From positions 1 to 11,889 of the forward strand of contig CAZTTV010000017.1 in the NCBI GenBank assembly GCA_964616385.1: DNA of 11,889 nt, written 5' to 3'. The position numbers and the translations under genes were made by a program. This stretch comes from an uncultured Candidatus Saccharibacteria bacterium (GTDB taxonomy: Bacteria > Patescibacteriota > Minisyncoccia > Phycocordibacterales > CAZTTV01). Shown here piece by piece: positions 1 through 11,500 of the stretch (within the stretch, counting starts at the first letter, position 1; every line of letters begins with the position of its first letter). Under the pieces are notes generated by a model. The model saw only the letters and a list, made by a program, of their open reading frames with translations, did not search any database and had not been told where the DNA came from.

Positions 1-55
1 ACTAGAAATAAAACGTGAAATGCTAGCTAAAAAAGCGACTAAAAAGCGTAAGTAA
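1..55 (+). repeat. Direct-repeat copy A, exact 55-bp match to 2328..2382. It carries the 3' end of a lysine-rich reading frame (…KRLEIKREMLAKKATKKRK*) and is cut by the window edge, so it may be longer.
   Basis: Character-by-character identity of 1..55 with 2328..2382. Flanks diverge immediately after (gtcatcg vs tttttgt). Confidence 0.9.
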
Positions 56-116: not shown

Positions 117-150
117 AATCGTACACCACACTCGTGATGTACGATTTTTA
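117..150. terminator. Bidirectional intrinsic terminator: 9-bp stem aatcgtaca/tgtacgatt with a T-run on both strands. It terminates the 148..639 (-) gene.
   Basis: Perfect 9-bp inverted repeat with 12-nt loop, then ttttt. It overlaps the stop codon of the minus-strand ORF. Confidence 0.55.
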
Positions 151-639
151 TGCCTTAATATCTATTCTATTCCCTAACAGTGAGCGAGACCTTTCTAATT
201 CTTTATGTAACTCATCAAATAAAGTATCCGTTGTTTTGTTTGGGTCATAACCCGAACTTGGAGCTACCCTTACAATACTTTGAGCAAGTTTTTTCTTCTC
301 TTGAGGAATTGGTGCTTCTGATACTGAGCTAACGGCATTTAACAATGCGGTAACTCCAACCTTTAATCCATTATTTGATGCAGCAGGACCGTATACCGAC
401 AACGAACCAATCCCGTTTGTAGACGAGCCTCCCATAAATCCATACAAAGAACTCAAGGATCCTTGTCCAATACTTCCGGTATTAGCGCTATCAATAATGG
501 AGATTAGACTCGCATTCATTTCCTGCCCTGTCTGCTGTATCGCTCCGCTACCAAGAGCTCCCATAGAAATCTTGAGTGATGATCCTAATAAACCAACAAC
601 TGGATTTGCGAAAACAGGAGAAATAGCTCCAATCTTCAT
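148..639 (-). CDS. Hypothetical Gly/Ser/Asn/Gln-rich low-complexity protein, 163 aa. Paralog family member P1 with a hydrophobic Gly-rich N-terminus and a VGLLGSSL motif.
   Basis: ATG at 639 is preceded by AGGAGA with a 5-nt spacer. It has its own terminator downstream. The N-terminal motif is shared with the 737..1081 and 1103..1360 products. Confidence 0.7.
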   Translation of the reverse strand: MKIGAISPVFANPVVGLLGSSLKISMGALGSGAIQQTGQEMNASLISIIDSANTGSIGQGSLSSLYGFMGGSSTNGIGSLSVYGPAASNNGLKVGVTALLNAVSSVSEAPIPQEKKKLAQSIVRVAPSSGYDPNKTTDTLFDELHKELERSRSLLGNRIDIKA

Positions 640-690
640 AATATTCTCCTAATGTTCTATCTAGCTACATAATAACATTTATTTTACAAT

Positions 691-730
691 TAAAAAACTC
701 CGCAGTGGTATATAAATACACACTGCAGAG
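691..730 (-). terminator. Intrinsic terminator after the 737..1081 gene: 10-bp stem (one mismatch) ctctgcagtg/cactgcggag, 13-nt loop, then TTTTTTA on the minus strand.
   Basis: Inverted repeat 698..707 / 721..730. The complement of 691..697 is ttttta. Confidence 0.6.
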
Positions 731-736
731 GTTTAC

Positions 737-1081
737 TTAGACATACATATTAACGGAGCCAGATCCAGAGCTTGAACTGTGCCCAGTATTTACTGGGTCT
801 CTCGCTCCAGAAGCACCGACGGAGCTTGGATAAACGGGGCCAAGGGAAGTATCCGAGCCAGGCCACTTGTCTTCCAGGGCCATCGCACGAATTAAATTAA
901 TATCTTTTTCGACACCTTTACTTTTAGGATCATCCTCTGCGCGCAATGAACCTGGTGACAGACTACTAGCCAATAACTCCCCCACTTGGGGCGCCTTAGA
1001 TCGCAGATCGGCAAAATCACCAAGATTAAGCCGCAAGCCACTAGCACTACTTACACCGCCTACTGGAGCAATACTTGACAT
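737..1081 (-). CDS. Hypothetical Gly/Ser-rich protein, 114 aa. Paralog family member P2 with a VGELLASSLSPGS motif and a C-terminal Ser-rich tract HSSSSGSGS.
   Basis: ATG at 1081 is preceded by GAGGAGA with a 6-nt spacer. It lies 21 nt downstream of the previous gene's stop, which implies an operon. Confidence 0.7.
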   Translation of the reverse strand: MSSIAPVGGVSSASGLRLNLGDFADLRSKAPQVGELLASSLSPGSLRAEDDPKSKGVEKDINLIRAMALEDKWPGSDTSLGPVYPSSVGASGARDPVNTGHSSSSGSGSVNMYV

Positions 1082-1102
1082 AGATTATCTCCTCAATTAA
1101 TG

Positions 1103-1360
1103 TTAAGCAGTACTATCTAATTTAGTACCTTTTCCAACTTCTTTTGCACCTGCGTCAAGAACATCGGACAGTTTACCTACGGACATTTTTTGAGCATCTC
1201 CAGAAGCAGTAGCCACTTCTTTTTGCTTGAATTCATCAACCGCATTTTTTACCGCATTTGCCTCGCCTGCAACCACTTGAAGCTCTTTGGGGCTCAAACT
1301 ACTCGCTTGAGTTGCACCAAACCCACCAATAGCACCTACGGACATACCTGAATCAGACAT
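1103..1360 (-). CDS. Hypothetical Gly/Ala/Lys-rich protein, 85 aa. Paralog family member P3 with N-terminus MSDSGMSVGAIGGFGATQASSLSPKEL.
   Basis: The ATG at 1360 is preceded by GGAAGGTGA about 6 nt upstream. It is chosen over the track start at 1411, which lacks an SD. The ASSLSP motif is shared with P2. Confidence 0.65.
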   Translation of the reverse strand: MSDSGMSVGAIGGFGATQASSLSPKELQVVAGEANAVKNAVDEFKQKEVATASGDAQKMSVGKLSDVLDAGAKEVGKGTKLDSTA

Positions 1361-1470
1361 GATATTCACCTTCCATTTATTTGTATAAAAACTAATTTGT
1401 GCACCATGCACGACAACCTATACTAGGTATAACATAAACTATTTAAAAATCAAGTCTTCCCGTAAATATT

Positions 1471-1506
1471 AAAACCCCCTCTATTTTATTAAACTGAGGG
1501 GGTTTT
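1471..1506 (-). terminator. Intrinsic terminator after the 1505..1747 gene: 11-bp stem aaaaccccctc/gagggggtttt with a 14-nt loop.
   Basis: Perfect 11-bp inverted repeat with an A-tract on one arm and a T-tract on the other. Confidence 0.65.
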
Positions 1507-1747
1507 AGATGGCTATATTGATTCCTCTACCAATGCCAAATTCGGACATAACATTATTAACATACTCTACGACTTCTCTTTTTTTTTCTTTGGCATTTTT
1601 CTTAGCAAGAGTACCTCTTGCCTGACGTCCACCACCTTGCCCAGAATTTATCCCTGAGAGAAATTTCACTCTTGCATACGCTCTAGCAACGGCCATTCTT
1701 CTCGTCATACTTCCTTGATTCTCTCCAGTTAATTGTGAGATATTCAT
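1505..1747 (-). CDS. Hypothetical basic Gly-rich protein, 80 aa (…MTRRMAVARAYARVKF…GQGGGRQARG…KKNAKEKKRE…MSEFGIGRG). Its ATG sits 1 nt after the upstream gene's TGA (TGAtATG).
   Basis: ATG 1747..1745. A purine-rich AAAGAAAG lies upstream and the gene is translationally coupled to 1749..1925. Confidence 0.55.
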   Translation of the reverse strand: MNISQLTGENQGSMTRRMAVARAYARVKFLSGINSGQGGGRQARGTLAKKNAKEKKREVVEYVNNVMSEFGIGRGINIAI

Positions 1748-1748
1748 A

Positions 1749-1925
1749 TCACTTTCTTTCTGATATTACAATACGGGAGGAAGGGATACAGTCGTGATCA
1801 TTGAAATAACCCACGATTATTTTACAACTACAGATTCCGCAAAAATGAAGACTTCTAGAATTCGCACCAGCACCAACTAAAGGCAAGTATTCCTTAATCT
1901 TTTTCTTATCCGCTAAGTCTGACAT
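1749..1925 (-). CDS. Cys-rich small peptide, 58 aa: MSDLADKKKIKEYLPLVGAGANSRSLHFCGICSCKIIVGYFNDHDCIPSSRIVISERK. Possible leader-core architecture; a candidate bacteriocin/RiPP-like precursor or a small metal-binding peptide.
   Basis: The real start is the ATG at 1925, preceded by GGAGA with a 5-nt spacer. The track's GTG at 1970 has no RBS. The reverse complement was translated codon by codon. Confidence 0.6.
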   Translation of the reverse strand: MSDLADKKKIKEYLPLVGAGANSRSLHFCGICSCKIIVGYFNDHDCIPSSRIVISERK

Positions 1926-1968
1926 AATAATCTCCAATTCAAAAGATGTTTTATTTTTTCTATCTGTC

Positions 1969-1996
1969 ACTGTATCATATTAAATGTTTTTGTCAA
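1969..1996 (-). promoter_or_regulatory. Putative sigma70-type promoter for the Cys-peptide operon: TTGACA, 16 nt, then TGATACAGT (extended -10-like).
   Basis: Reverse complement of 1991..1996 is TTGACA, and of 1969..1977 is tgatacagt. Confidence 0.4.
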
Positions 1997-2261
1997 CCCA
2001 AATCGCTATATCTTAAAAACCATACTTTCTGTTAAATAAAGAACTCCAGATATAGAATGCCGTGGGTATCAAAGGAGTTTGTTGCCTCAGGTCAAACCTG
2101 AGACATGATTTAGGCGTTGAACATAAAAATCTTCTTGTGTTTATTTAAAATACAGTAACCTAAGTGTTTAGATGAGCACATATATTTGTCTATACCTACA
2201 AATAACAAACATCCTGTATATTATTTTGTAAACTATAATATAAATAGTGTATACTGTGGCA

Positions 2262-2382
2262 TATGGCAAAAAGAAGTACTGGAATAGAAAAAAATAAAAC
2301 ATCACGTTCAAAAAAGACAAAAAAACGACTAGAAATAAAACGTGAAATGCTAGCTAAAAAAGCGACTAAAAAGCGTAAGTAA
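2262..2382 (+). other. Tiny lysine-rich reading frame. ATG 2262 gives MAKRSTGNRKK* (11 aa). The +1 frame continues …GIEKNKTSRSKKTKKRLEIKREMLAKKATKKRK* to 2382. It is either a frameshifted or slippage-prone small basic protein gene, or a non-coding repeat. Its 3' 55 bp are duplicated at 1..55.
   Basis: Manual translation of both frames. TTGTAA-18-TATACT ends 7 nt before the ATG (a leaderless-type layout). The homopolymer aaaaaaa lies at 2288..2294. Confidence 0.3.
2328..2382 (+). repeat. Direct-repeat copy B, exact 55-bp match to 1..55.
   Basis: Exact identity with 1..55. Confidence 0.9.
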
Positions 2383-2499: not shown

Positions 2500-2787
2500 C
2501 TATTCTTTCCTGAGTGACTCATAGAAATCAACAATTTCTTTTAGACGCTCTTCGCCGATTTCGTTTTCCAAAACATCTAAGAAAGAACTCCCCATTTCTT
2601 CCTCTGCAAGAAGCTCTTCCATTAAAATATGTATGTTTGGTAAATTCTCGTCCCTAGATCCCTTGTTGGTTCTGCGTATTATGAGAAGTTCTCTAATGCA
2701 TAGATATACACCGACATCTGTCCTTTCATACTCTGACAAACCAAAATGTTTTGAAACAATCTCCATATGATCTTCGTTGCAACGCAT
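2500..2787 (-). CDS. Hypothetical acidic protein, about 95 aa (MRCNEDHMEIVSKHFGLSEYE…EEEMGSSFLDVLENEIGEERLKEIVDFYESLRKE).
   Basis: The ATG at 2787 is preceded by GAGGTG 4 to 5 nt upstream. The track start at 2799 is an in-frame ATG lying inside the SD. Confidence 0.55.
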   Translation of the reverse strand: MRCNEDHMEIVSKHFGLSEYERTDVGVYLCIRELLIIRRTNKGSRDENLPNIHILMEELLAEEEMGSSFLDVLENEIGEERLKEIVDFYESLRKE

Positions 2788-2967
2788 TATGCACCTCATT
2801 TTTTGTAATTTTTTATTATCAAATTACCCCAAAGGATAACTCACTTTCTAATATCTATCTTAGATTATCTCATAATACTGTGGTAATGTCAACAGTAACG
2901 TAGCGCACGTATATTAGAATATATAATATACTTTTTATATATTTTGTGTTATCGTATAACCAATATC

Positions 2968-2995
2968 AAATCTCCTCTTTGGTTGGAGATTTTTT
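2968..2995 (+). terminator. Plus-strand intrinsic terminator or attenuator: hairpin aaatctcc-tctttggtt-ggagattt then TTTTTG. It lies 42 nt upstream of the typA ATG with no plus-strand gene upstream.
   Basis: 8-bp perfect stem and T-tract. The complementary-strand flank is not T-rich, so it is plus-strand specific. Confidence 0.5.
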
Positions 2996-3036
2996 GTTTG
3001 AAGTATAAAACACTTAGATAATTTAAATTTATATTT

Positions 3037-4821
3037 ATGGAAATAAGGAACATAGCAATAATAGCTCATGTTGACCACGGGAAGACGACTCTTACCGATG
3101 CTATTTTGCGTCAAACTGGTGCTGTTGATAATAATACAAGCATGGACAGCGATGCCCTTGAACAAGAACGGGGTATAACCATATACTCAAAAAATGCTGC
3201 GACTGTATATAAAGACACAAAAATAAATATTGTTGATACACCAGGTCATGCAGATTTTGGTTCAGAGGTAGAGCGAGTATTGCGTTCAATTGACTCTGTA
3301 TTATTGATAGTTGATGCACAAGAAGGTCCGATGCCACAAACTCGTTTCGTTCTAAAGAAATCTCTTGATCTTGGTCTTCGTCCAATTTTAGTAATAAACA
3401 AAATAGACAAAGAAGCTGCTGATCATGTTAAGGTACACGATGAAGTATTTGATTTATTTTCAGAGCTAGGAGCAACAAACGAGCAGTTGGACTTCCCTGT
3501 TATTTATGCAATTGGAAGAGATGGCGTTGCAATGAAAAATATAGACGATGAAAAAAAAGACCTTACTCCACTTCTTGATTTAATTTTAGAACATGTACCA
3601 GTAGCGTCAGGAGACAAAGACGGTTCGTTCATCGCACAGCCTTTTAACCTTGCGTATGACAATTTTCTAGGAAGACTTGCTATCGTACGTATTCACGACG
3701 GAAGTATAAAATCAGGTGATAATATTTTTGTAAAAAAACAAGACGGAATTTCTAAACATAAAATAACAAAACTATTTACTTTTCATGGAACATCACGTGT
3801 TGATACAGATGAAATAATTGCTGGAGATATTGCAATCATTGCAGGACTTCCTGATGTATATATTGGAGATACACTATGCACAGATGAAAACACTGCTCTA
3901 CTTGAAGCTATTGCTGTTGACGAGCCAACTATTGAGCTTACATTTCTTGTAAACAACTCCCCTTTCGCAGGTCGTGAAGGAAAATTTGTAACAAGCAGAC
4001 AAATCCGTGAGCGTTTAGAAAAAGAACTTGAAGTAAATGTTGGATTACGTGTTAATTTTGATACAGGAGGTGGTGAACAATTCACAGTTTACGGACGTGG
4101 CGAACTACACATTGCGATTTTAATAGAAAATATGCGTAGAGAAGGATACGAACTTCAAATTTCACAACCAAAAGTTATCATGAAAGAAGTCGATGGAAAA
4201 AGACAAGAACCATTTGAAGAAATAACGATTGATGTTCCTGAAGAATTTCAAGGTACAGTGATTGAAGCATTGAATAAAAGAGGTGCTACTATGCTAAATC
4301 TTGAACTCCATGACACTCGTGCGCAAATGTTATTTGAAGGTCCAACACGTGGACTATTTGGATACAGAAGTGTATTTGTAATTGATACAAGAGGAGAAGG
4401 AATCTTTGCAACTCGTGTGACAGGATACAAACCATACGCAGGCGAAATAGAACGTCGTGATGCAGGTTCAATGATTTCACAAGTTACTGGCAAGACACTC
4501 GCCTTTTCACTCGCAAATCTTCAAACACGTGGAGTACTATATATTAAAGAAAATACTGAGGTTTACGAAGGTATGGTTATAGGAAATACATCCAAAGGAG
4601 AACAAATGACAGTAAACCCTACAAAAGGAAAACAACTTACCAACATGCGTGCATCTGGAAGTGATGAAGCTATTTCACTTACTCCTCCACAAATTGTTAC
4701 TATTGAAACTGGTCTTGAGATAATGGCGAAAGATGAGTATTTAGAAGTAACCCCAAAATCTGTACGTCTTAGAAAACAACATTTGACTGATAATGACCGA
4801 TCAAAAGCAAGAAGAAAATAA
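3037..4821 (+). CDS. typA: Translational GTPase TypA/BipA (594 aa).
   Basis: N-terminus [21 protein letters not shown] with G1-G5 GTPase motifs ([13 protein letters not shown]). Length and C-terminal domain are typical of the BipA family (established knowledge). No SD upstream. Confidence 0.95.
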
Positions 4822-4850
4822 ATAAAAATTGCTAACAAATTATAATATAC

Positions 4851-4893
4851 AAAAAAATACCCCGAGTACTCTTACGAATACTCGGGGATTTTG
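4851..4893. terminator. Bidirectional terminator between convergent typA and the band-7 gene: aaaaaaata-ccccgagta…tactcgggg-attttg.
   Basis: 9-bp perfect stem with 10-nt loop and flanking A/T tracts. Confidence 0.7.
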
Positions 4894-4902
4894 TTTGTGT
4901 TG

Positions 4903-6666
4903 CTATTGTTTATTGGATGCTGGCTTTGCATCCATTTGCATCACAACAGGAATACTTCTTTTTATTGCTTGGGTTAGTGTTGAATTACCTAATATCGCTG
5001 CTGCACCTTCCAATGTCCCACCGCCCTGAACACCACTAACATTTACATGTGGCACTTTGACAATATCAGGATTTTCAGCAGCAACTTTTAATGCTTCTTT
5101 AAGCATTTGTAGTTGCAATACACGATCTTGACCCAATACATCTACTTGGGCCTTTTGACCTTTTGCAATTTCGATTAGCTTTAGCTTCTCACCCTCACCT
5201 TCAAGTTTCAATCGGTCCTTTTTAAATGAGGCTGCTTTTTTTTCAATCTCTGCTTGAACTAAGATTGGCTGTTTGTCAGCTGTTGCTCGTTCACGTTCAG
5301 ACTTGATTCGCTCTTTTTGAGCTTTCTGCTCCTCTATGTATGTTTCCCTTAGTTGACTCGCAAGCTGCTGACGCAAGGTTGCGACCAGTAATTCCGGTGG
5401 AATTGCTGGTTCACCCATCCTAGCCTCTTGTATCGTAACACCTGCTTTTGCTCCTTCCGGGGCAATAGCCTCTTCTACTTGCGCAACGATTTCGTCTCGC
5501 TTTTCTATAAAATCCAATACCTTGCGATCCGGATGACCACCTATAGTTCGAAGAATGTCCCGAATTGCTGGCGTTACGATTTTATCTTCAACATCTTGCA
5601 GTGTGCCAACAGAAGCAACAACTTTCGGCGCATCGTTTGGATGTACTTGAACTAATACACGCATATCAACTGGAATTATCCAACCTTCAACACGTACATT
5701 AATTGCATGATCCGCGGCGCTTTTCGGTTGAACAATTTCGTATGGCTCCTCTGTTTGCTCAATCTTACCATCGTCTCCAACAGTTAAATTGATTTTACGA
5801 CTACTATACCCACCACGATATGTCCATGTTTGAACACGTGTTGGAATAATTGTAGGAACATATGCACGGTCGTTCAGATAATATTTCCCTGGGGACAAAG
5901 GCTCACTCCAAACACCGATACATCCTCTTGGTACAAGTGGCGCAGACAAATCCGAACCGGTCTTACCACTTTCGGATGTCATGAGTTTGCTATTGTCTGG
6001 ACAGTCTTCATCTGTTTGAACATTAGAACGTATCACTGCGACATGCCCGGTTGGCACATTTAGAGCTTTGCCAAGTTTAACTTCAAATAAATATTGGTTG
6101 ATACGATATTTACCGGGACGCAATACATCAAGTTGAGGTCCTTTCTGTCCTTTACCATCACCAAGAAAATACTTGGCATCCAACATTTTATCAAAATTGC
6201 TTTCTCCCCAAGCATCAGCTATAAACTGATTATTGCGTAGAGGTGAGCCATCTTTGGTAACAAGAAAACCCCATTTCCCACTGGGGATGTCTATTACTGG
6301 CAACTCTTCAATTTCATACAAGACACGAATAAATGGTCTGAAATGAAAACCTGGTCCAAGGATTTCAGCTTGTGGTCCTTTTTGTCCATATTGCGCAATA
6401 ATCTTTCCAGGTGGTAGAGTATCTCCCAAATAAATACGCTTCAGATGACCGACTTTATCCTGACCGATAACCACAAATGATGTACTCGCGAATAAAAATA
6501 AAGCGACCAAACCCATGGTTCCAGCCGTAACATATCGAAGCCATTCTAGTTTTATCTCAACATTTTCTCCTCTGGTATCACTCCACACCTTTCTCGTCTC
6601 TGGAATAAACCTTGGTGCAAAAACTGCAGCCAAGATTGCAAGAATACCTAATATAATTTGAAACAT
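4903..6666 (-). CDS. SPFH/band-7 flotillin-like membrane protein (YqiK/FloT type), about 587 aa. It has an N-terminal double hydrophobic segment, an SPFH domain, and a C-terminal Glu/Ala/Lys-rich coiled-coil.
   Basis: The start is reassigned to the ATG at 6666 (MFQIILGILAILAAVF…), preceded by AAGGAAG. The track start at 6729 adds 21 residues with no RBS. The SPFH-like region and the EA-rich coiled-coil tail are typical of flotillins. Confidence 0.75.
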   Translation of the reverse strand: MFQIILGILAILAAVFAPRFIPETRKVWSDTRGENVEIKLEWLRYVTAGTMGLVALFLFASTSFVVIGQDKVGHLKRIYLGDTLPPGKIIAQYGQKGPQAEILGPGFHFRPFIRVLYEIEELPVIDIPSGKWGFLVTKDGSPLRNNQFIADAWGESNFDKMLDAKYFLGDGKGQKGPQLDVLRPGKYRINQYLFEVKLGKALNVPTGHVAVIRSNVQTDEDCPDNSKLMTSESGKTGSDLSAPLVPRGCIGVWSEPLSPGKYYLNDRAYVPTIIPTRVQTWTYRGGYSSRKINLTVGDDGKIEQTEEPYEIVQPKSAADHAINVRVEGWIIPVDMRVLVQVHPNDAPKVVASVGTLQDVEDKIVTPAIRDILRTIGGHPDRKVLDFIEKRDEIVAQVEEAIAPEGAKAGVTIQEARMGEPAIPPELLVATLRQQLASQLRETYIEEQKAQKERIKSERERATADKQPILVQAEIEKKAASFKKDRLKLEGEGEKLKLIEIAKGQKAQVDVLGQDRVLQLQMLKEALKVAAENPDIVKVPHVNVSGVQGGGTLEGAAAILGNSTLTQAIKRSIPVVMQMDAKPASNKQ

Positions 6667-6924
6667 TTTTCTTCCTTTCTTTAGTTTGTTTTGTGAAATC
6701 ACAAAATTGCGATATCCACGACATAACATTCAGTTTTCAACGAGCCTATGATAAAAACATGTTTAATTTAAACACATTAACCTATCATAGCAATAAACAC
6801 TAACAATTTTTATGTATCTTGTCAATAGTAGTAATGTAAACAATTAAAAACTTCAGTTATTGCACTTTTATATAAATTTTATATTTATAAACAAAAATAT
6901 TCAAAAATCTGATACAATTTAAAT

Positions 6925-7867: not shown

Positions 7868-8146
7868 CTATCTACTATTCCTGAAACAATCTATGCATTT
7901 TAAATTCCCTGTTTCTCTTGGCTCGAATGGTAGTTGTGATATTGTCGCACTACAGCTACCACATTTCCAATCTCCTTGAAACATTTTCTTTTGTGGGCTA
8001 TCTGACTTTTTTGATGCATGACAATCACGACAAAGTAACCCACTTGTATCTCTCGGTTCAAACGGTAATTCTGTTATATCTTTATTACAACCCGAACACT
8101 TCCAATTGCCTTGAAACATTTTTCTATCACTATTTTGTGAATCCAT
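7868..8146 (-). CDS. Small tandem C4 zinc-ribbon protein, 92 aa, with two copies of KMFQG(N/D)WKC(S/G)(G/S)C-x18-C-x-DC.
   Basis: Internal duplication at protein level and at DNA level (about 28-nt near-identical repeat starts). C-x2-C-x18-C-x2-C spacing resembles TraR/DksA-type C4 fingers, ending in CIDC. No SD, so the start (8146 vs 8119) is uncertain. Confidence 0.6.
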   Translation of the reverse strand: MDSQNSDRKMFQGNWKCSGCNKDITELPFEPRDTSGLLCRDCHASKKSDSPQKKMFQGDWKCGSCSATISQLPFEPRETGNLKCIDCFRNSR

Positions 8147-8263: not shown

Positions 8264-9430
8264 TTACAAATATGATATAACTTTATTCGCCATATCTTTT
8301 GTACCTAAAAGTTTTAAAGAATCATCTCCATCAGAAAATATATCTCCTGTACGATACCCTTCACGCAAAACACGCAAAACTGATTTCTCTATATCATCAG
8401 CACCTTCAATTGCACCGATGTGTCTGAGCATCATACCTGCTGTAAGAATTCTTCCAAGTGGATTTGCTATTCCCTGCCCAGCAATTGTTGGTGCAGTACC
8501 TGCTCCACTTTCAAACATAGCAGAACCCGTATCAGGATTTATAGCAGAACTACACATCATTCCCATACTTCCCAATGCGCTAGCTGCACCGTCTGACAAT
8601 ATATCGCCATGTTCATTACCACAAGCGATAACTCCATTAAGTTTTGCTGGTGTGAACAAAAGTGCATTAGCTGAATCTACAAGTTGATGTTTTAATTCAA
8701 CATCAGGAAATTCTTCCATCCCAATTTTTGTAGTAATCTTCCTCCAAAAATCATATCTTGCCATTACGTTAGCTTTATCGATTGAAATAAGCGGAAGATC
8801 CAACTTCTTGGCATAGCCAAAAGCAAAGCGTATATACTTTTCAATAGTCTCTTTTCTGTAATAAGCAACGTCAGTAACAATATATTCTTCTATAGAAACT
8901 TTATTTTTGAGCATTATACCGAGCATTGTTTTTGTATCATCATCGATAAAATCAACAAAGTCTGTATTCCCAAAATAGCTATCTTCCAGAAGAAGACGAA
9001 TCCAAATTTGTTTTATCCCTTTATCTGGTATTGTCCCAGGTTTAACATTTGCGAGACTATCAAGCACCTTGTAATAAGTCATTGGTCGAAAATTAAGCAA
9101 CAAACCCATAGTACTTCTAAGAGCAAGTAAGCATCTGGCTTCAGGCTTCATCTCTGGTTTTTCAATACCTATTGTATTGTCAAACTTAGGATCACCTACT
9201 CCACCAAAAAATATCGTACCGATTTCAACTGCTCTTTCAAAAGAACTCTTTGGAAGTGTGTCTCCAAATATTTCGTAAGCATTCCACCCCATAGGAGTAT
9301 CTTCAAAAACAATTTCCATACCATATTTCTCCGCAGCAATAATAGCAACGGAACAAGCAGCTTCCATCATTTCTGGACCAGAACCATCACCTTTTACTAA
9401 AGCAATGGTTTTCTTTCTATTAATTCCCAT
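8264..9430 (-). CDS. leuB: 3-isopropylmalate dehydrogenase family (isocitrate/isopropylmalate/homoisocitrate DH superfamily), 388 aa.
   Basis: Family motifs (…GNEHGDILSDGAASALGSMGM…). RBS GAAAGGA. It lies 15 nt downstream of the leuCD stop, so it is operonic. Confidence 0.75.
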   Translation of the reverse strand: MGINRKKTIALVKGDGSGPEMMEAACSVAIIAAEKYGMEIVFEDTPMGWNAYEIFGDTLPKSSFERAVEIGTIFFGGVGDPKFDNTIGIEKPEMKPEARCLLALRSTMGLLLNFRPMTYYKVLDSLANVKPGTIPDKGIKQIWIRLLLEDSYFGNTDFVDFIDDDTKTMLGIMLKNKVSIEEYIVTDVAYYRKETIEKYIRFAFGYAKKLDLPLISIDKANVMARYDFWRKITTKIGMEEFPDVELKHQLVDSANALLFTPAKLNGVIACGNEHGDILSDGAASALGSMGMMCSSAINPDTGSAMFESGAGTAPTIAGQGIANPLGRILTAGMMLRHIGAIEGADDIEKSVLRVLREGYRTGDIFSDGDDSLKLLGTKDMANKVISYL

Positions 9431-9445
9431 AAATATATCCTTTCT

Positions 9446-11389
9446 CTATAGAATTTTATGTTGTTTCTGTAATTCAGCTGCAATTTCAATCATTACATTA
9501 ACACTTCCATTATTTCTAATGAGCTCTTTTTGATAATCAGACAATCTAAACTCTATAAATATGTCTCCATTGCTGATTAGACCGTTCTCTATATCAATCG
9601 TCAGATTGCTGACACTTCCTAATTGCTCAATAGTGTTAGCTGGTAGTGTTATGCACAAAAGACCATTTGCGAACATATTATCTTCAAAAATACGTGCAAA
9701 ACTTGGTGCTATAATACATTTAGTACCAGCTCCTTCCAATGCCCATGGTGCATGCTCTCTTGATGACCCACAGCCAAAGTTCTCCCCAACTATAAGTATC
9801 TGAGATTCAAATAATCTCTGTCTCCCTTCTTTGTCAATGGAAGAATCTTCGAGACAATGTTCTCCAAATACTTTTTTATCAGTTTCTGTTAAATATTTTG
9901 CTGGTATTATCTGATCTGTATCAACATTGTCATCTTTCAAATGAAAAACTTTGCCAGAAAAATCTTTTTTACTTTCACTGCTAAACATTTTTAACAACTT
10001 AGAATAATCAGGGGTTGTAAACGGAACATCATTCCAATGAGTTGGTATGGATTTTGACACCTCACAACCAACCAAAGAACCTAGGCGCGCTCGCTTGCAC
10101 ATATCCTTATCTGGTTCTGTTATTACTCCAAAAATAGCAGACATAGCTGCTGTTGCAGGAGATACTAAATGCACAATTCCGCCCTTACCCATTCTTCCTG
10201 GGAAATTACGATTAGTTGTAGAAATACAAACCTCACCAGGGGCAAGAACACCACAACTCATACCAAGACAAGCACCACATGTAGGACCACTAACAAAACA
10301 TCCAGCTTTTACAAATGTCTGTATTAATCCTTCTGAAATAGCTTGCTCATATATATGTTGTGTGGCAGGAACTATAATACATCGAACAGAAGAATTTATT
10401 CTACCTCCCAAAATACGAATGACTTCTGCTGCTATTCTCAAATCTTCAATTCTTCCATTTGTGCAAGAACCAATATATATCTGATCAATTTTCTTGTCAG
10501 CAATACCAGATACATCAACAACACACTCGGGTGAATAATTGATAGTAGCTTTAGGACACATGTCTGACACATCAATTTCTATGACATCATTATATTCTGC
10601 ATTCAAATCACTATTAAAAGACAAAAATCTTTCAATATTAGAATCTACGTTTTCATGTCCAAGATATTTTATGATAGCTGGTTTTAAATAAGAAATCGTC
10701 TTTCCGTCAATTGGCATAATCCCTGATGTTGCTCCAGCTTCAACAACCATATTAGTGATTGTCATTCTACTTTCCATGGTCATTTCATTAATGACTGACC
10801 CACCAAATTCCAATACAGAGTTTGTCGCACCTTTTACACCAATTTTCCCAATAAGTGTCAAAATCAAATCTTTAGCAAATACATTTTCAGGCAACTCGCC
10901 TACAAAATTCACACGTATAACTTTTTGAGGTTGGCATATCCAAAGTCCTGTTATGATACCATTTTCTAGATCGGTAGAACCAACTCCTGCAGAAAAAGAA
11001 CCAAAGGCTCCATGTGTGCAAGTGTGGCTATCTCCCATAATTCCAACTTCTCCAGGGAGTATCCAACCCAATTCTGGTATGATCGCATGACACACGCCAT
11101 TTCGTCCTATATCTAGAAACTCTATTTTATGGCTATGGCTCCAATCTCTTATTATTTTACCCTGAACAGCAGATGCTGTATCTTTCGCAGGATTAACATG
11201 ATCTATCATTGCCTTAATCTTATTTGGATCAAAAACAACGTCACAATCGCGAGACTGTGCATCAATTATAGAAGGAGGAGTAGTAATCTCGTGACACCAC
11301 ACCCTATCAACTTTTAGCACCATTCTTCCGTCTTGTAGTGTTTTTACAACATGTTTAGAGATTATTTTCTCATACATATTTCTAGCCAT
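9446..11389 (-). CDS. leuCD: Fused 3-isopropylmalate dehydratase: large-subunit (LeuC, aconitase-family, small archaeal type) plus small-subunit (LeuD) in one polypeptide, about 647 aa.
   Basis: N-terminal part has aconitase-family Cys ligands (…GSCTNGRIEDL…, …CGACLGM…). C-terminal part matches LeuD (…NVDTDQIIPAKYL…GENFGCGSSREHAPWAL…SFARIFEDN…). Start is reassigned to the ATG at 11389 (MARNMYEKIISKH) behind AGGAGAAAAAAATG. The track's TTG start at 11500 is the -35 box. Confidence 0.8.
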   Translation of the reverse strand: MARNMYEKIISKHVVKTLQDGRMVLKVDRVWCHEITTPPSIIDAQSRDCDVVFDPNKIKAMIDHVNPAKDTASAVQGKIIRDWSHSHKIEFLDIGRNGVCHAIIPELGWILPGEVGIMGDSHTCTHGAFGSFSAGVGSTDLENGIITGLWICQPQKVIRVNFVGELPENVFAKDLILTLIGKIGVKGATNSVLEFGGSVINEMTMESRMTITNMVVEAGATSGIMPIDGKTISYLKPAIIKYLGHENVDSNIERFLSFNSDLNAEYNDVIEIDVSDMCPKATINYSPECVVDVSGIADKKIDQIYIGSCTNGRIEDLRIAAEVIRILGGRINSSVRCIIVPATQHIYEQAISEGLIQTFVKAGCFVSGPTCGACLGMSCGVLAPGEVCISTTNRNFPGRMGKGGIVHLVSPATAAMSAIFGVITEPDKDMCKRARLGSLVGCEVSKSIPTHWNDVPFTTPDYSKLLKMFSSESKKDFSGKVFHLKDDNVDTDQIIPAKYLTETDKKVFGEHCLEDSSIDKEGRQRLFESQILIVGENFGCGSSREHAPWALEGAGTKCIIAPSFARIFEDNMFANGLLCITLPANTIEQLGSVSNLTIDIENGLISNGDIFIEFRLSDYQKELIRNNGSVNVMIEIAAELQKQHKIL

Positions 11390-11471
11390 TTTTTTCTCCT
11401 TTTTTGTATATGATTCTAAAACTTTTATCAATGAACAAAAACAGCTACGCCGTTTAAGCTTTCTAATAGCC

Positions 11472-11500
11472 ACATTACATAAAATATACTGTTTGGTCAA
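11472..11500 (-). promoter_or_regulatory. Putative leuCD promoter: TTGACC, 17 nt, then TAATGT.
   Basis: Reverse complement of 11495..11500 is ttgacc, and of 11472..11477 is taatgt. The spacer is 17 nt. Confidence 0.45.

What the first reader, a model, noticed from the sequence alone, without database searches (positions are those of the whole stretch)
148..1360. Three-member paralogous family of Gly/Ser-rich low-complexity proteins with a conserved N-terminal module
P1 (163 aa), P2 (114 aa) and P3 (85 aa) each begin with a Gly-rich hydrophobic stretch (IGAISPVF / IAPVGGVSS / MSVGAIGGFG). Each then has the motif G-x-LL-x-SSL-(S/K)-(P/I): VGLLGSSLKIS in P1, VGELLASSLSPGS in P2, GATQASSLSPKEL in P3. 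ASSLSP is identical in P2 and P3. The C-termini diverge into G/S/N/Q-rich prion- or amyloid-like sequence in P1 (…SLSSLYGFMGGSSTNGIGSLSVYGPAASNNG…) or K/A/E-rich sequence in P3. All three have strong SDs and no classical signal peptide. P3 and P2 are operonic and P1 has its own promoter and terminator. I cannot place them in any known family. The GxxG/GxxxG N-termini suggest glycine-zipper membrane insertion or self-assembly into a coat, amyloid or bacteriocin-like structure.
Basis: partly seen in the sequence, partly recalled or inferred. Interest (0 to 1): 0.75.

Follow-up and report, generated by a model that had tools for sequence, protein, structure and literature searches.

The report
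Orphan disordered proteins sharing end motifs
Four neighbouring small genes in an uncultivated ultra-small (Patescibacteria) bacterium encode mostly disordered orphan proteins that are not alignable paralogues. They share short motifs at their very beginnings and ends that are far too similar to be chance, which suggests they all dock onto one still-unknown partner.

Summary
The three ORFs are real and look like genuine genes. They have Shine-Dalgarno sites, three intrinsic terminators and host-like codon usage, and a 96%-identical strain variant differs only inside the ORFs, with an in-frame 9-bp indel. The organism is a Patescibacteria/CPR bacterium from a metagenome.

They are not a paralogous family in the usual sense: BLASTP, Smith-Waterman shuffles and hhalign are all non-significant. 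The claimed G-x-LL-x-SSL motif does not hold up.

Two short terminal motifs are shared. The first is an N-terminal I-x-A-I-S-P-V-like core (P1, P2, P3).

An exhaustive search gave P1 four remote homologues. In these, the two termini and a ~75-aa C-terminal module are conserved, while the Gly/Ser-rich middle is a variable linker. On another contig a P1 homologue is again flanked by small genes with these motifs. Six of 14 neighbour tests reach p ≤ 0.014 (binomial 2e-8).

The tail resembles that of the flagellar proteins FlaG and YjfB, but family membership fails. The likeliest mechanism is that the termini dock the proteins onto a common partner. The function remains unproven.

The whole block is bracketed by a perfect 55-nt direct repeat.

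The parts
148..639 (-). P1, 163 aa. It has an N-terminal motif MKIGAISPV, an almost uncharged Gly/Ser-rich disordered linker (about 10-88), a conserved C-terminal module (89-163) and the tail LLGNRIDIKA-COOH.
   Evidence: ORF. Coding LLR 0.19/codon, the best of 6 frames. Four remote homologues by exhaustive phmmer, best E=3.4e-13 over the full length. Alignment A2. AF2 mean pLDDT 46.6, residues 1-91 disordered, helix 137-155.
613..639 (-). N-terminal motif of P1 (residues 1-9, M-K-I-G-A-I-S-P-V).
   Evidence: M1 and I3 are invariant. Mean pairwise identity is 51% in the P1 family, against 27% in the linker.
151..177 (-). C-terminal tail of P1 (last 9 residues, LGNRIDIKA).
   Evidence: L154, G156 and A163 are invariant in the family. 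The strict tail regex hits 8 of 13,369 ORFs: 7 are P1, P3, P4, three P1 homologues and the L171 79-aa neighbour, and the 8th is a 43-aa out-of-frame ORF in L167. None are in the background loci.
117..146 (-). Intrinsic terminator after P1 (13-bp stem followed by a T-rich tract).
737..1081 (-). P2, 114 aa. N-terminal MSSIAPVGG (the P1-type core shifted by 2 residues), Ser/Gly-rich C-terminus, tail GSGSVNMYV (marginal match).
   Evidence: ORF. Coding LLR 0.15. N-core p=0.002. Tail p=0.026. NG86 omega 0.42 against the L002 variant.
692..730 (-). Intrinsic terminator after P2 (CTCTGCAGTG...CACTGCGGAG + TTTTTT). It ends the P3-P2 operon.
   Evidence: Read directly.
1103..1360 (-). P3, 85 aa. N-terminal MSDSG-MSVGAIGG, a predicted helical hairpin and the tail GKGTKLDSTA-COOH.
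   Evidence: ORF. SD GGAAGGTGA with a 5-nt spacer before Met1. Coding LLR 0.42. AF2 pLDDT 68, helices 24-52 and 56-77, both termini free. Tail p=0.0004 and N-core p=0.014.
1106..1132 (-). C-terminal tail of P3 (KGTKLDSTA).
   Evidence: Ranks above all but 5 of 13,164 background ORFs on a PSSM trained only on the P1 family.
1505..1747 (-). P4, 80 aa, basic (pI 11). It lies outside the finding's coordinates but carries the same tail (GIGRGINIAI-COOH). It forms its own transcription unit.
   Evidence: ORF. Coding LLR 0.28. Tail p=0.0014 and N-core not significant at p=0.40.
1470..1507 (-). Hairpin terminator after P4 (AAAACCCCCTC...GAGGGGGTTTT).
   Evidence: Inverted repeat I4. Sequence.
1..55 (+). 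Left copy of a perfect 55-nt direct repeat, located at the contig edge.
   Evidence: D1, 100% identity. The Logan contig L001 ends inside it at window 26.
2328..2382 (+). Right copy of the 55-nt direct repeat. It is the 3' end, including the stop codon, of a 39-aa Lys-rich ORF (2263-2382). Together the two copies bracket a 2,327-bp unit holding P1-P5.
   Evidence: The sibling-metagenome contig L177 equals window 1642-2382 and ends exactly at 2382.
1749..1925 (-). P5, a small ORF (58-73 aa) in the same block. It has neither terminal motif and serves as a negative control.
   Evidence: p=0.62-0.89.

Best explanation
P1, P3 and P4 (with P2 as a weaker member) are real genes for small, largely disordered, cytoplasmically synthesised proteins of a Patescibacteria bacterium. 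They have no signal peptide. They are linked not by a common fold but by two short linear motifs at their extreme ends: an N-terminal hydrophobic core (I-x-A-I-S-P-V-like) and a C-terminal tail G-x-x-[IVL]-[DN]-[hydrophobic]-x-[AVI]-COOH.

I propose that these termini are docking signals. The tail, with alternating hydrophobic residues up to the free carboxylate, would add as a beta-strand onto a common partner protein. The N-terminal motif would provide a second contact or an export signal. The Gly/Ser-rich or helical middles would be variable spacers or payloads. The proteins would then be either clients of one signal-peptide-independent export or assembly machine, or competitive regulators of it.

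SHOWN: the genes look coding and expressed; the termini are conserved and statistically non-random; the middle is variable and disordered.

INFERRED: beta-strand docking, a common partner, and export. The partner is unknown.
For: GENES ARE REAL:
- SDs and terminators.
- Coding LLR is the best of six frames for all four, and GC3 is host-like.
- A 95.8%-identical variant (L002) has 37 substitutions, all inside ORFs and none in 118 nt of intergenic DNA, plus a 9-bp in-frame indel in P1. P2 omega is 0.42.

P1 FAMILY:
- Exhaustive phmmer over 1.84 billion representatives finds 4 homologues, E=3e-13 to 1e-4.
- Conservation is concentrated in residues 1-9 (51%) and 89-163 (45%), against 27% in the linker.

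TAIL:
- The strict regex hits 8 of 13,369 ORFs. Seven are P1, P3, P4, three P1 homologues and a 79-aa neighbour of a P1 homologue. The eighth is a 43-aa out-of-frame ORF in L167. None lie in the roughly 160 background loci.
- With a PSSM trained only on the P1 family: P3 p=0.0004, P4 p=0.0014, L171 79-aa p<8e-5, controls P5 and P6 p>0.6.

N-TERMINAL CORE: P2 p=0.002, P3 p=0.014, L171 136-aa p=0.0018.

OVERALL: 6 of 14 neighbour tests reach p<=0.0144, binomial 2.4e-8.

REPLICATION: in contig L171 the P1 homologue is again next to two small ORFs, one with the N-motif and one with the tail.

STRUCTURE: P1 residues 1-91 are disordered, and a helix (137-155) precedes the free tail. P3 is a helical hairpin with free termini.

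PRECEDENT: real FlaG and YjfB proteins end in the same type of tail. PSSM p = 2e-4, 0.002 and 0.011 for FlaG, and <8e-5 and 8e-5 for YjfB. For C. jejuni FlaG, AlphaFold 3 predicts that the last six residues dock as a beta-strand on the FlhA export-gate torus. FlaG is also secreted without a Sec signal (PMC11536152).
Against: - No partner has been identified.
- The phylum is reported to lack flagellar genes (PMC13293708), so the FlaG/FlhA precedent cannot apply literally.
- The motifs are only 7-9 residues long. I first recognised them by eye, although the PSSMs were trained on independent sequences.
- After correcting for 24,736 Pfam families, the YjfB resemblance is what about 2 families would show by chance.
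- hhalign shows no domain-level link to YjfB or FlaG beyond the tail: P=0.02 and 0.17 for the P1 family, and nothing for P3 or P4.
- P2's tail is marginal (p=0.026) and P4 lacks the N-motif.
- Three of the five homologue-bearing contigs (L167, L168, L170) show no motif-bearing neighbour, and L169's only downstream ORF runs off the contig end. All of these contigs are short, at 2-5 kb.
- P2, P3 and P4 were searched only with the word-index tool, so conservation of their termini in orthologues is unknown.
- P1 against its variant has 7 nonsynonymous and 2 synonymous changes, so it shows no demonstrable purifying selection at that scale.
Confidence: 0.4

Rival explanations
1. Self-assembling structural proteins (coat, fibre, amyloid). 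The uncharged Gly/Ser-rich segments or the hydrophobic termini would drive polymerisation, for example head-to-tail pairing of the N-terminal motif of one subunit with the C-terminal beta-strand tail of the next.
For: P1 residues 1-100 are 35% G+S with only 5 charged residues. Both termini are hydrophobic and strand-prone, and they co-occur in the same proteins. There are several co-located genes with the same ends, as in multi-component fibres. A type IV pilin gene sits next to the L171 cluster.
Against: The Gly/Ser-rich region is the least conserved part of the P1 family, in both sequence and length. N+Q is only 10%, so it is not prion-like. There is no signal peptide or sortase-like, pilin-like or other export signal for an extracellular polymer. 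AF2 shows no strands at either terminus in the monomers. P3 and P4 are charged and helical or basic, not low-complexity.
Confidence: 0.15
2. Unrelated, fast-evolving, lineage-specific orphan genes in a variable genomic island. In this view the terminal similarities are compositional or coincidental and imply no common function.
For: No pairwise or profile homology. Near-total absence from 5.8 billion clusters. No homologues near TypA in 160 related loci. Strain-level hypervariability in P2. The block is bracketed by a direct repeat and is absent from the neighbourhoods of relatives. The motifs were recognised post hoc.
Against: PSSMs trained only on the P1 family place the termini of P2, P3, P4 and both L171 neighbours in the top 0.01-1.4% of 13,164 ORFs, while controls P5 and P6 score at random. 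The binomial is 2.4e-8. The same association recurs on an independent contig at about 30% P1 identity. Within the P1 family these termini are among the most conserved segments across roughly 65-70% sequence divergence.
Confidence: 0.2
3. Ribosomally made, leader-dependent secreted peptides (bacteriocin- or microcin-like). P3's LSPKELQVVAGE resembles a double-glycine leader, and P2's SSSSGSGS resembles the Ser-rich C-terminus of class IIb microcins.
For: Weak NCBIfam hit of P3 to 'CTB family bacteriocin' (E=0.058, 13.6 bits). Gly/Ser-rich composition. The resemblance of LSxxELxxVxG to the leader consensus, and of the P2 C-terminus to microcin E492-type tails, rests on my own knowledge.
Against: The score is far below the cutoff (13.6 against 32 bits). 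The position after the putative leader is G-E rather than GG, GA or GS, and 21 residues precede the 'leader'. The would-be mature peptides are acidic and hydrophilic (pI 4.9-5.2). There is no peptidase-domain ABC exporter, immunity or modification gene in the 11.9-kb window. P2's Ser-rich run is followed by VNMYV, so it is not C-terminal.
Confidence: 0.04
4. The ORFs are not genes. They would be chance open frames or non-coding RNA.
For: Small size, low complexity and orphan status.
Against: SDs, terminators and a six-frame coding test. P1 has full-length homologues at E=3e-13. An in-frame indel, and substitutions confined to the ORFs. No Rfam family and no tRNA.
Confidence: 0.02

Closest known systems
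YjfB family, 'putative motility protein' (Pfam PF14070)
   Same: Small proteins with no signal peptide. The N-terminus is M-D-I-x-A-L-S (compare M-x-I-x-A-I-S) and the extreme C-terminus is (H)-L/I-G-x-x-[IL]-D-x-K-[LV]-COOH. Real members (Acetoanaerobium; B. velezensis WP_012117340) rank 0 and 1 of 13,164 on the P1-trained tail PSSM. hhalign aligns the last 25 columns of the YjfB profile end-to-end with the P1 family (P=0.02), and the last 17 with the L171 79-aa protein (P=3e-4, probability 39%). P3's predicted layout (free N-terminus, helices, free tail) is the layout I would expect for YjfB. That expectation is an inference.
   Different: No Pfam hit even at E<=10. hhalign finds nothing for P3 or P4. 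P1 is three times longer, with an unrelated 75-aa module and a long Gly/Ser linker. YjfB sits in sigma-28/flagellar modules (bioRxiv 10.1101/2024.01.09.574855), whereas this phylum largely lacks flagella. After correction for the number of Pfam families the resemblance is not significant. YjfB itself is uncharacterised.
FlaG (Pfam PF03646; PDB 2HC5, 6JSX), flagellar filament-length regulator
   Same: A small protein with a flexible N-terminal region and no Sec signal, ending in G-[LI]-[IF]-[IV]-[DN]-x-x-[AG]-COOH. Real tails: KLGLIIDEKA, RAGLIVDKRG, LQGLFVNQTA, with PSSM p=2e-4 to 0.011. Its last six residues are predicted to dock as a beta-strand on the FlhA torus, and the protein is secreted (PMC11536152). 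This is the only mechanistic precedent for such a tail. In Acetoanaerobium, yjfB lies immediately upstream of flaG.
   Different: The FlaG alpha/beta domain is not detectable in P1-P4: no Pfam hit, hhalign P=0.17 on a different region, and no PDB hit with the P1 profile. There is no fliD/fliS/flagellin context, and no FlhA is known in the phylum.
Intrinsically disordered flagellar/T3SS clients such as FlgM (my own knowledge)
   Same: Small and largely disordered until bound. They have no Sec signal and function through short terminal segments that bind a partner or an export gate.
   Different: No sequence similarity was found (Pfam). No T3SS is known in the host lineage. This is purely a functional analogy.

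Membership tests
YjfB_motility (PF14070) | Match to the Pfam HMM at or above the gathering score (27 bits) | tested here: not met
   No hit for P1-P4, P0009-P0012 or the L171 ORFs even at E<=10. Control probes scored 75 and 89 bits.
YjfB_motility (PF14070) | C-terminal tail ...G-x-x-[IVL]-D-x-x-[AVL]-COOH | tested here: met
   P1, P3 and P4 carry it. Real YjfB tails score in the top 0-1 of 13,164 on the P1-trained PSSM. P2 is marginal (p=0.026).
YjfB_motility (PF14070) | N-terminal M-D-I-x-x-L-S motif | tested here: inconclusive
   Real YjfB N-termini score p=0.06-0.10 on the P1-family N-core PSSM.
YjfB_motility (PF14070) | Profile-profile similarity over the helical core | tested here: not met
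   hhalign aligns only the tail (P=0.02 for the P1 family) and finds nothing for P3 or P4. The YjfB profile had only 2 real sequences plus 2 Pfam-validated probes.
YjfB_motility (PF14070) | Flagellar / sigma-28 genomic context | tested here: not met
   No flagellar gene in the 11.9-kb window. The phylum is reported to lack flagellar genes (PMC13293708). The whole genome is not available.
FlaG (PF03646) | Match to the Pfam HMM, or profile-profile similarity to the FlaG domain | tested here: not met
   No Pfam hit. hhalign of A4 against A2 gives P=0.17 on a non-equivalent region. The P1 profile against PDB, which includes 2HC5 and 6JSX, gives 0 hits.
FlaG (PF03646) | C-terminal beta-strand tail G-L-[IF]-[IV]-[DN]-x-x-x-COOH | tested here: met
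   Native FlaG tails score p=2e-4, 0.002 and 0.011 on the P1-trained PSSM.
FlaG (PF03646) | Docking of the tail onto FlhA, and secretion by the flagellar T3SS | not testable with these tools
   This needs the complete genome to look for an FlhA/SctV homologue, plus interaction assays. The precedent comes from PMC11536152 only.
Double-glycine-leader bacteriocins / CTB family (NF038167) | HMM score above the cutoff, and a GG/GA/GS cleavage motif after LSxxELxxIxG | tested here: not met
   13.6 bits against a cutoff of 32. P3 reads ...LSPKELQVVAG-E, not GG/GA/GS.
Double-glycine-leader bacteriocins / CTB family (NF038167) | Adjacent C39-peptidase ABC exporter or immunity gene | tested here: not met
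   None in the window. The genome beyond 11.9 kb is unknown.
Glycine-zipper membrane proteins (Pfam Gly-zipper families) | Pfam match and a membrane-spanning hydrophobic segment | tested here: not met
   No Pfam hit. The maximum 19-residue Kyte-Doolittle mean is 1.33 (P1), 0.71 (P2) and 0.69 (P3), all below about 1.6.

The most novel reading that the evidence does not exclude
The shared termini are a portable address label for a leaderless protein-export or host-injection route in Patescibacteria, a phylum without flagella or known T3SS. The FlaG/YjfB-type C-terminal beta-strand tail would dock disordered effector proteins onto an as yet unrecognised gate. The 2.3-kb repeat-bracketed, strain-variable block P1-P5 would be a mobile or amplifiable effector cassette used in episymbiosis.
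Probability: 0.08. Interest if true: 0.8.

Novelty: new variant of a known kind. Interest (0 to 1): 0.4.

Why it matters
Patescibacteria make up a large share of bacterial diversity and live attached to other microbes, yet almost nothing is known about the proteins they use beyond type IV pili.

If a set of otherwise unrelated disordered proteins carries one common pair of end-signals, that pair becomes a searchable signature. It could be used to find the clients, and then by pull-down the machine, of a shared pathway in organisms that cannot be cultured easily.

It would also suggest that the C-terminal tail of FlaG and YjfB is a more general docking motif than a flagellum-specific one.

If the similarity proves functionally empty, the locus is simply a fast-evolving orphan island and is of local interest only.

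Tried and rejected
1. CURATED LIBRARIES. Pfam, NCBIfam, PHROGs and PADLOC gave nothing for P1-P6. Rfam and tRNA scans gave nothing.

2. WORD-INDEX HOMOLOGY SEARCHES. For P1, P2 and P3 these returned only self hits or a 91% variant.

3. SYNTENY. I anchored on TypA in 80 reference genomes and 80 metagenome contigs (2.26 Mb). There is no P1-P6 homologue by tblastn and no conserved gene order upstream of TypA. The only close relative (L005, about 90% TypA) ends inside TypA.

4. DIRECT SCANS. P4 in genome contigs, P1 in metagenome contigs, and P1 and the P1 family in viral contigs: no relatives. A phage origin of the family is therefore not supported, despite RusA, ThyX and Tmk neighbours on some homologue contigs.

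5. STRUCTURE. The P1 model is too poor for a fold search (pLDDT 47). The P3 hairpin gave 0 PDB Foldseek hits. The afdb50 library was unavailable.

6. FlaG-DOMAIN HOMOLOGY of the P1 C-terminal module. I considered this because of '...P..TTEEL...L.E...L.G..VD..A', and rejected it on hhalign (P=0.17).

7. FOREIGN ORIGIN suggested by raised GC (0.44-0.46 at 500-1250). Rejected because GC3 is host-like and the excess comes from Gly/Ala/Ser/Pro codons.

8. P3 STARTING AT Met6, which would put the motif at residue 1. Rejected because the strong SD serves Met1.

9. RECODED STOP OR READ-THROUGH joining P3 and P2, which are in the same frame 21 nt apart. Rejected because there are two further in-frame TAA codons and P2 has its own SD.

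10. SOURCE STUDY. A literature search for the accession numbers found none.
Full report
WHAT IS THERE. The window holds the three minus-strand ORFs exactly as described: P1 148-639 (163 aa), P2 737-1081 (114 aa) and P3 1103-1360 (85 aa). Each has a strong Shine-Dalgarno sequence. P3 and P2 are 21 nt apart with no terminator between them. Hairpin + T-run terminators follow P2 (692-730) and P1 (117-146). A further small gene upstream, P4 (1505-1747, 80 aa), has its own terminator at 1470-1507. With a codon model trained on the window's five well-identified genes, P1-P4 score as coding (0.15-0.42 nat/codon, against 0.28-0.38 for the training genes). The annotated frame is the best of six in each case. 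Their GC3 (0.26-0.38) is host-like, so the locally raised GC reflects Gly/Ala/Ser/Pro codons and not foreign DNA.

SOURCE AND POPULATION VARIATION. The sequence comes from a large metagenome assembly (GCA_006243085.1, with sibling assemblies VAPM and VAPH) and from Logan assemblies of SRR6439371 and SRR6439372. TypA's best matches (75-71%) are Patescibacteria/CPR MAGs. A second allele of the locus (L002/L003) is 95.8% identical over window 152-1238. All 37 substitutions lie inside ORFs and none in the 118 nt of intergenic DNA. P1 carries a 9-bp in-frame insertion. P2 has 25 differences (NG86: 10.5 synonymous, 14.5 nonsynonymous, omega 0.42, dS 0.14), 14 of them within 862-907. P1 has 7 nonsynonymous and 2 synonymous changes, too few to judge. 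Together these results settle that the ORFs are genes.

IS IT A PARALOGOUS FAMILY? Not by any alignment test.
- BLASTP E-values are 2.0, 0.037 and 0.55.
- Smith-Waterman scores against composition-matched shuffles give p >= 0.095 for all pairs.
- The P1-family profile against P2, P3 and P4 gives hhalign P = 0.31, 0.27 and 0.61.
- The identical hexamer ASSLSP in P2 and P3 is mildly unusual (44 of 20,000 shuffles). It reads AISLSP in the 96% variant, and the corresponding P1 segment is not conserved in P1's homologues.
- No curated library (Pfam, NCBIfam, PHROGs, PADLOC) and no PDB sequence matches.

P1 HAS A SMALL, REAL FAMILY. Word-index searches of 5.8 billion clusters found only self hits or the variant for P1-P3. 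The single exhaustive phmmer run over 1.84 billion representatives gave P1 four remote homologues of 166-184 aa (E = 3.4e-13, 1.1e-8, 2.4e-6, 1.1e-4; 29-35% identity, collinear over the full length). All are singleton clusters from a few metagenomes. The alignment shows three zones:
- an N-terminal M-x-I-(G/S/D)-A-I-S-P-V motif (51% mean pairwise identity);
- a Gly/Ser-rich, almost uncharged linker, variable in length and sequence (27%);
- a conserved acidic C-terminal module of about 75 aa ending in L-x-G-x-x-V-D-x-x-A-COOH (45%).
AlphaFold2 with this alignment predicts residues 1-91 disordered, with the best element a helix at 137-155 just before the free tail (mean pLDDT 46.6).

THE SHARED FEATURE IS AT THE ENDS. 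On contig L171 the P1 homologue is followed by two small ORFs. One (136 aa) begins MVIDAIGAVGGV. The other (79 aa) ends HLGGKIDVFA. That prompted a check of the window proteins: P1 ends LLGNRIDIKA, P3 GKGTKLDSTA, P4 GIGRGINIAI and P2 GSGSVNMYV.
- A strict tail regex hits 8 of 13,369 ORFs in all the DNA I held. Seven are P1, P3, P4, three P1 homologues and the L171 79-aa ORF. The eighth is a 43-aa out-of-frame ORF in L167. None lie in the roughly 160 background Patescibacteria loci.
- To avoid circularity I trained PSSMs only on the five P1-family sequences and ranked other proteins against 13,164 background ORFs.
- Tail: P3 p=0.0004, P4 p=0.0014, P2 p=0.026, L171 79-aa p<8e-5, controls P5 and P6 p=0.62 and 0.97.
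- N-terminal 7-residue core, allowed to slide within the first 15 residues: P2 p=0.002, P3 p=0.014, L171 136-aa p=0.0018, P4 p=0.40, controls p>0.7.
- Six of 14 tests reach p <= 0.0144 (binomial 2.4e-8). Fisher-combined p values are 7e-5 (P3), 6e-4 (P2) and 5e-3 (P4).
The stronger shared feature, the C-terminal tail, and the fourth member P4 were missed.

PHYSICAL CHARACTER. None of the proteins has a signal-peptide-like N-terminus or a segment hydrophobic enough to span a membrane (maximum 19-residue Kyte-Doolittle mean 1.46 across the whole set). P1 residues 1-100 have 35% G+S, 10% N+Q and 5 charged residues. P3 is predicted as a free N-terminal segment, a helical hairpin (24-52, 56-77) and a free tail (pLDDT 68), with no PDB fold match. 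Glycine-zipper membrane insertion and 'prion-like' are not supported. Amyloid or fibre formation was not tested.

COMPARISON WITH KNOWN FAMILIES. The tail and N-terminus reminded me of the YjfB 'putative motility protein' family and of FlaG, so I tested both.
- My remembered probes hit PF14070 (75 and 89 bits) and PF03646 (107 bits), which confirmed the recollection.
- I then fetched real sequences: YjfB from Acetoanaerobium and B. velezensis; FlaG from Rossellomorea, Acetoanaerobium, Cupriavidus and PDB 2HC5/6JSX.
- Real YjfB tails rank 0 and 1 of 13,164 on the P1-trained PSSM. FlaG tails rank at p=2e-4, 0.002 and 0.011.
- Membership nevertheless fails. There are no Pfam hits even at E<=10. 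hhalign aligns only the last 25 columns of YjfB with the P1 family (P=0.02) and the last 17 with the L171 79-aa protein (P=3e-4), finds nothing for P3 or P4, and finds nothing between FlaG and the P1 family (P=0.17).
- Corrected for 24,736 Pfam families, the combined YjfB resemblance is what about 2 families would show by chance.
I therefore treat YjfB and FlaG as the closest analogues, not as the family. They matter because FlaG offers the only mechanism for such a tail. In C. jejuni, its last six residues are predicted to add as a beta-strand onto a conserved strand of the FlhA export-gate torus, FlhA-site mutations change filament length, and FlaG is secreted without a Sec signal (PMC11536152). 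YjfB is 'an uncharacterized small protein' of the sigma-28 module, and in Acetoanaerobium it lies directly upstream of flaG. Patescibacteria are reported to lack flagellar genes (PMC13293708), so any partner here must be different.

MOST LIKELY MECHANISM (confidence 0.4). P1, P3 and P4, with P2 a weaker member, are disordered proteins whose conserved termini are short linear docking motifs for one common partner. The tail, with alternating hydrophobic residues up to the free carboxylate, would bind by beta-strand addition. The N-terminal motif would be a second contact or an export signal. The middles would be variable spacers or payloads.
- Shown: gene reality, conservation and non-randomness of the termini, a variable and disordered middle, and recurrence of the association on an independent contig.
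- Inferred: docking, a common partner, and export.
- Rivals: self-assembly, including head-to-tail strand pairing (0.15); unrelated orphans with coincidental ends (0.2); leader-dependent bacteriocin-like peptides (0.04); non-genes (0.02).

GENOMIC SETTING. No homologue of P1-P6 and no conserved gene order exists upstream of TypA in 160 related loci. P1's homologues are stand-alone genes in differing contexts: DUF1573 and RusA; Tmk-ThyX; and a type IV pilin plus small ORFs. Window 1-55 is an exact copy of 2328-2382, the 3' end of a 39-aa Lys-rich ORF. The contig starts at this repeat, and two other assemblies break at or inside it: L001 at window 26 and L177 at 2382. The 2,327-bp unit holding P1-P5 is therefore flanked by duplicated gene ends, tandemly duplicated, or circular/excisable. 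Only reads can decide which.

VERDICT. The locus encodes a very rare, previously undescribed set of disordered proteins united by terminal motifs, with a FlaG/YjfB-like tail in a phylum without flagella. Function is unproven and the motifs are short. P2, P3 and P4 could not be searched exhaustively. Interest is moderate (0.4).

Noticed in passing
window 1-55 and 2328-2382; unit 56-2382: A perfect 55-nt direct repeat (the 3' end and stop codon of a 39-aa Lys-rich ORF, 2263-2382) brackets the 2,327-bp block that holds P1-P5. The contig begins exactly at the repeat. Two other assemblies break at or inside it: L001 at window 26 and L177 at 2382. The cause could be a flanked insertion, a tandem duplication or a circular/excisable unit. 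The block contains no integrase or Rep gene.
   Followed up: partly
window 862-907 (inside P2), compared with L002/L003: 14 of the 37 substitutions between the two alleles fall in 46 bp of P2 (KDINLIRAMALEDKWPG becomes GDINLIHAMELIKKWAG). dS in P2 is 0.14, against about 0.02 in P1 and 0 in the intergenic DNA. This suggests an imported divergent allele (recombination) or local diversifying selection.
   Followed up: partly
window 4903-6729 (-): A 608-aa SPFH/Band-7 protein gene with raised GC (0.43-0.46) lies between TypA and the alpha/beta hydrolase. In the closest relative (L005, JGI 3300039233) TypA is followed directly by the hydrolase, so this gene is an indel between close relatives.
   Followed up: partly
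window 8264-11500 (-); L005 2549-5680: An isocitrate/isopropylmalate-dehydrogenase-family gene sits next to a fused aconitase-family large+small subunit gene (up to 684 aa here, 649 aa in L005). These are biosynthetic or TCA-type enzymes and are unusual for the metabolically minimal Patescibacteria. The pair is conserved in the close relative.
   Followed up: no
window 7868-8146 (-): A 92-aa protein with two tandem CxxC-x17-CxxC treble-clef zinc fingers (PF23477 / TIGR04272). It is 86% identical in L005 and 44% identical in L166.
   Followed up: no
L171 1206-1616 (-), 1647-1886 (-), 3-479 (-): Next to the P1 homologue P0012 there are a 136-aa ORF with the P1-type N-terminus, a 79-aa basic ORF with a perfect YjfB-like tail (EHLGGKIDVFA), and a type IV pilin (N_methyl motif). 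P4 and the 79-aa ORF are the same length, are both basic, and share a central GGG(R)Q-x-R motif, but their Smith-Waterman p is only 0.10.
   Followed up: partly
L175 463-639 and 733-1125 (Acetoanaerobium noterae NZ_CP154629.1): yjfB lies about 90 nt upstream of flaG on the same strand, and both end in the same type of C-terminal tail. The two families may share a tail-dependent mechanism. hhalign finds no domain homology between them (P=0.52).
   Followed up: partly
window 2500-2799 (-) and 1749-1970 (-): Two more small orphan ORFs (99 aa; 58-73 aa) lie between the block and TypA. They have no family hit and lack the terminal motifs. A palindromic terminator-like site at 2410-2425 sits just after the right repeat copy.
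   Followed up: no
L006/L087 (VAPK011167456.1) = window about 2798-5068: The same assembly holds a second contig whose TypA product is identical to the window's (594 aa, 100%), and several short variant contigs (L002, L004). GCA_006243085.1 is therefore redundant or multi-strain, and its contig copy numbers should not be read as genomic copy numbers.
   Followed up: no
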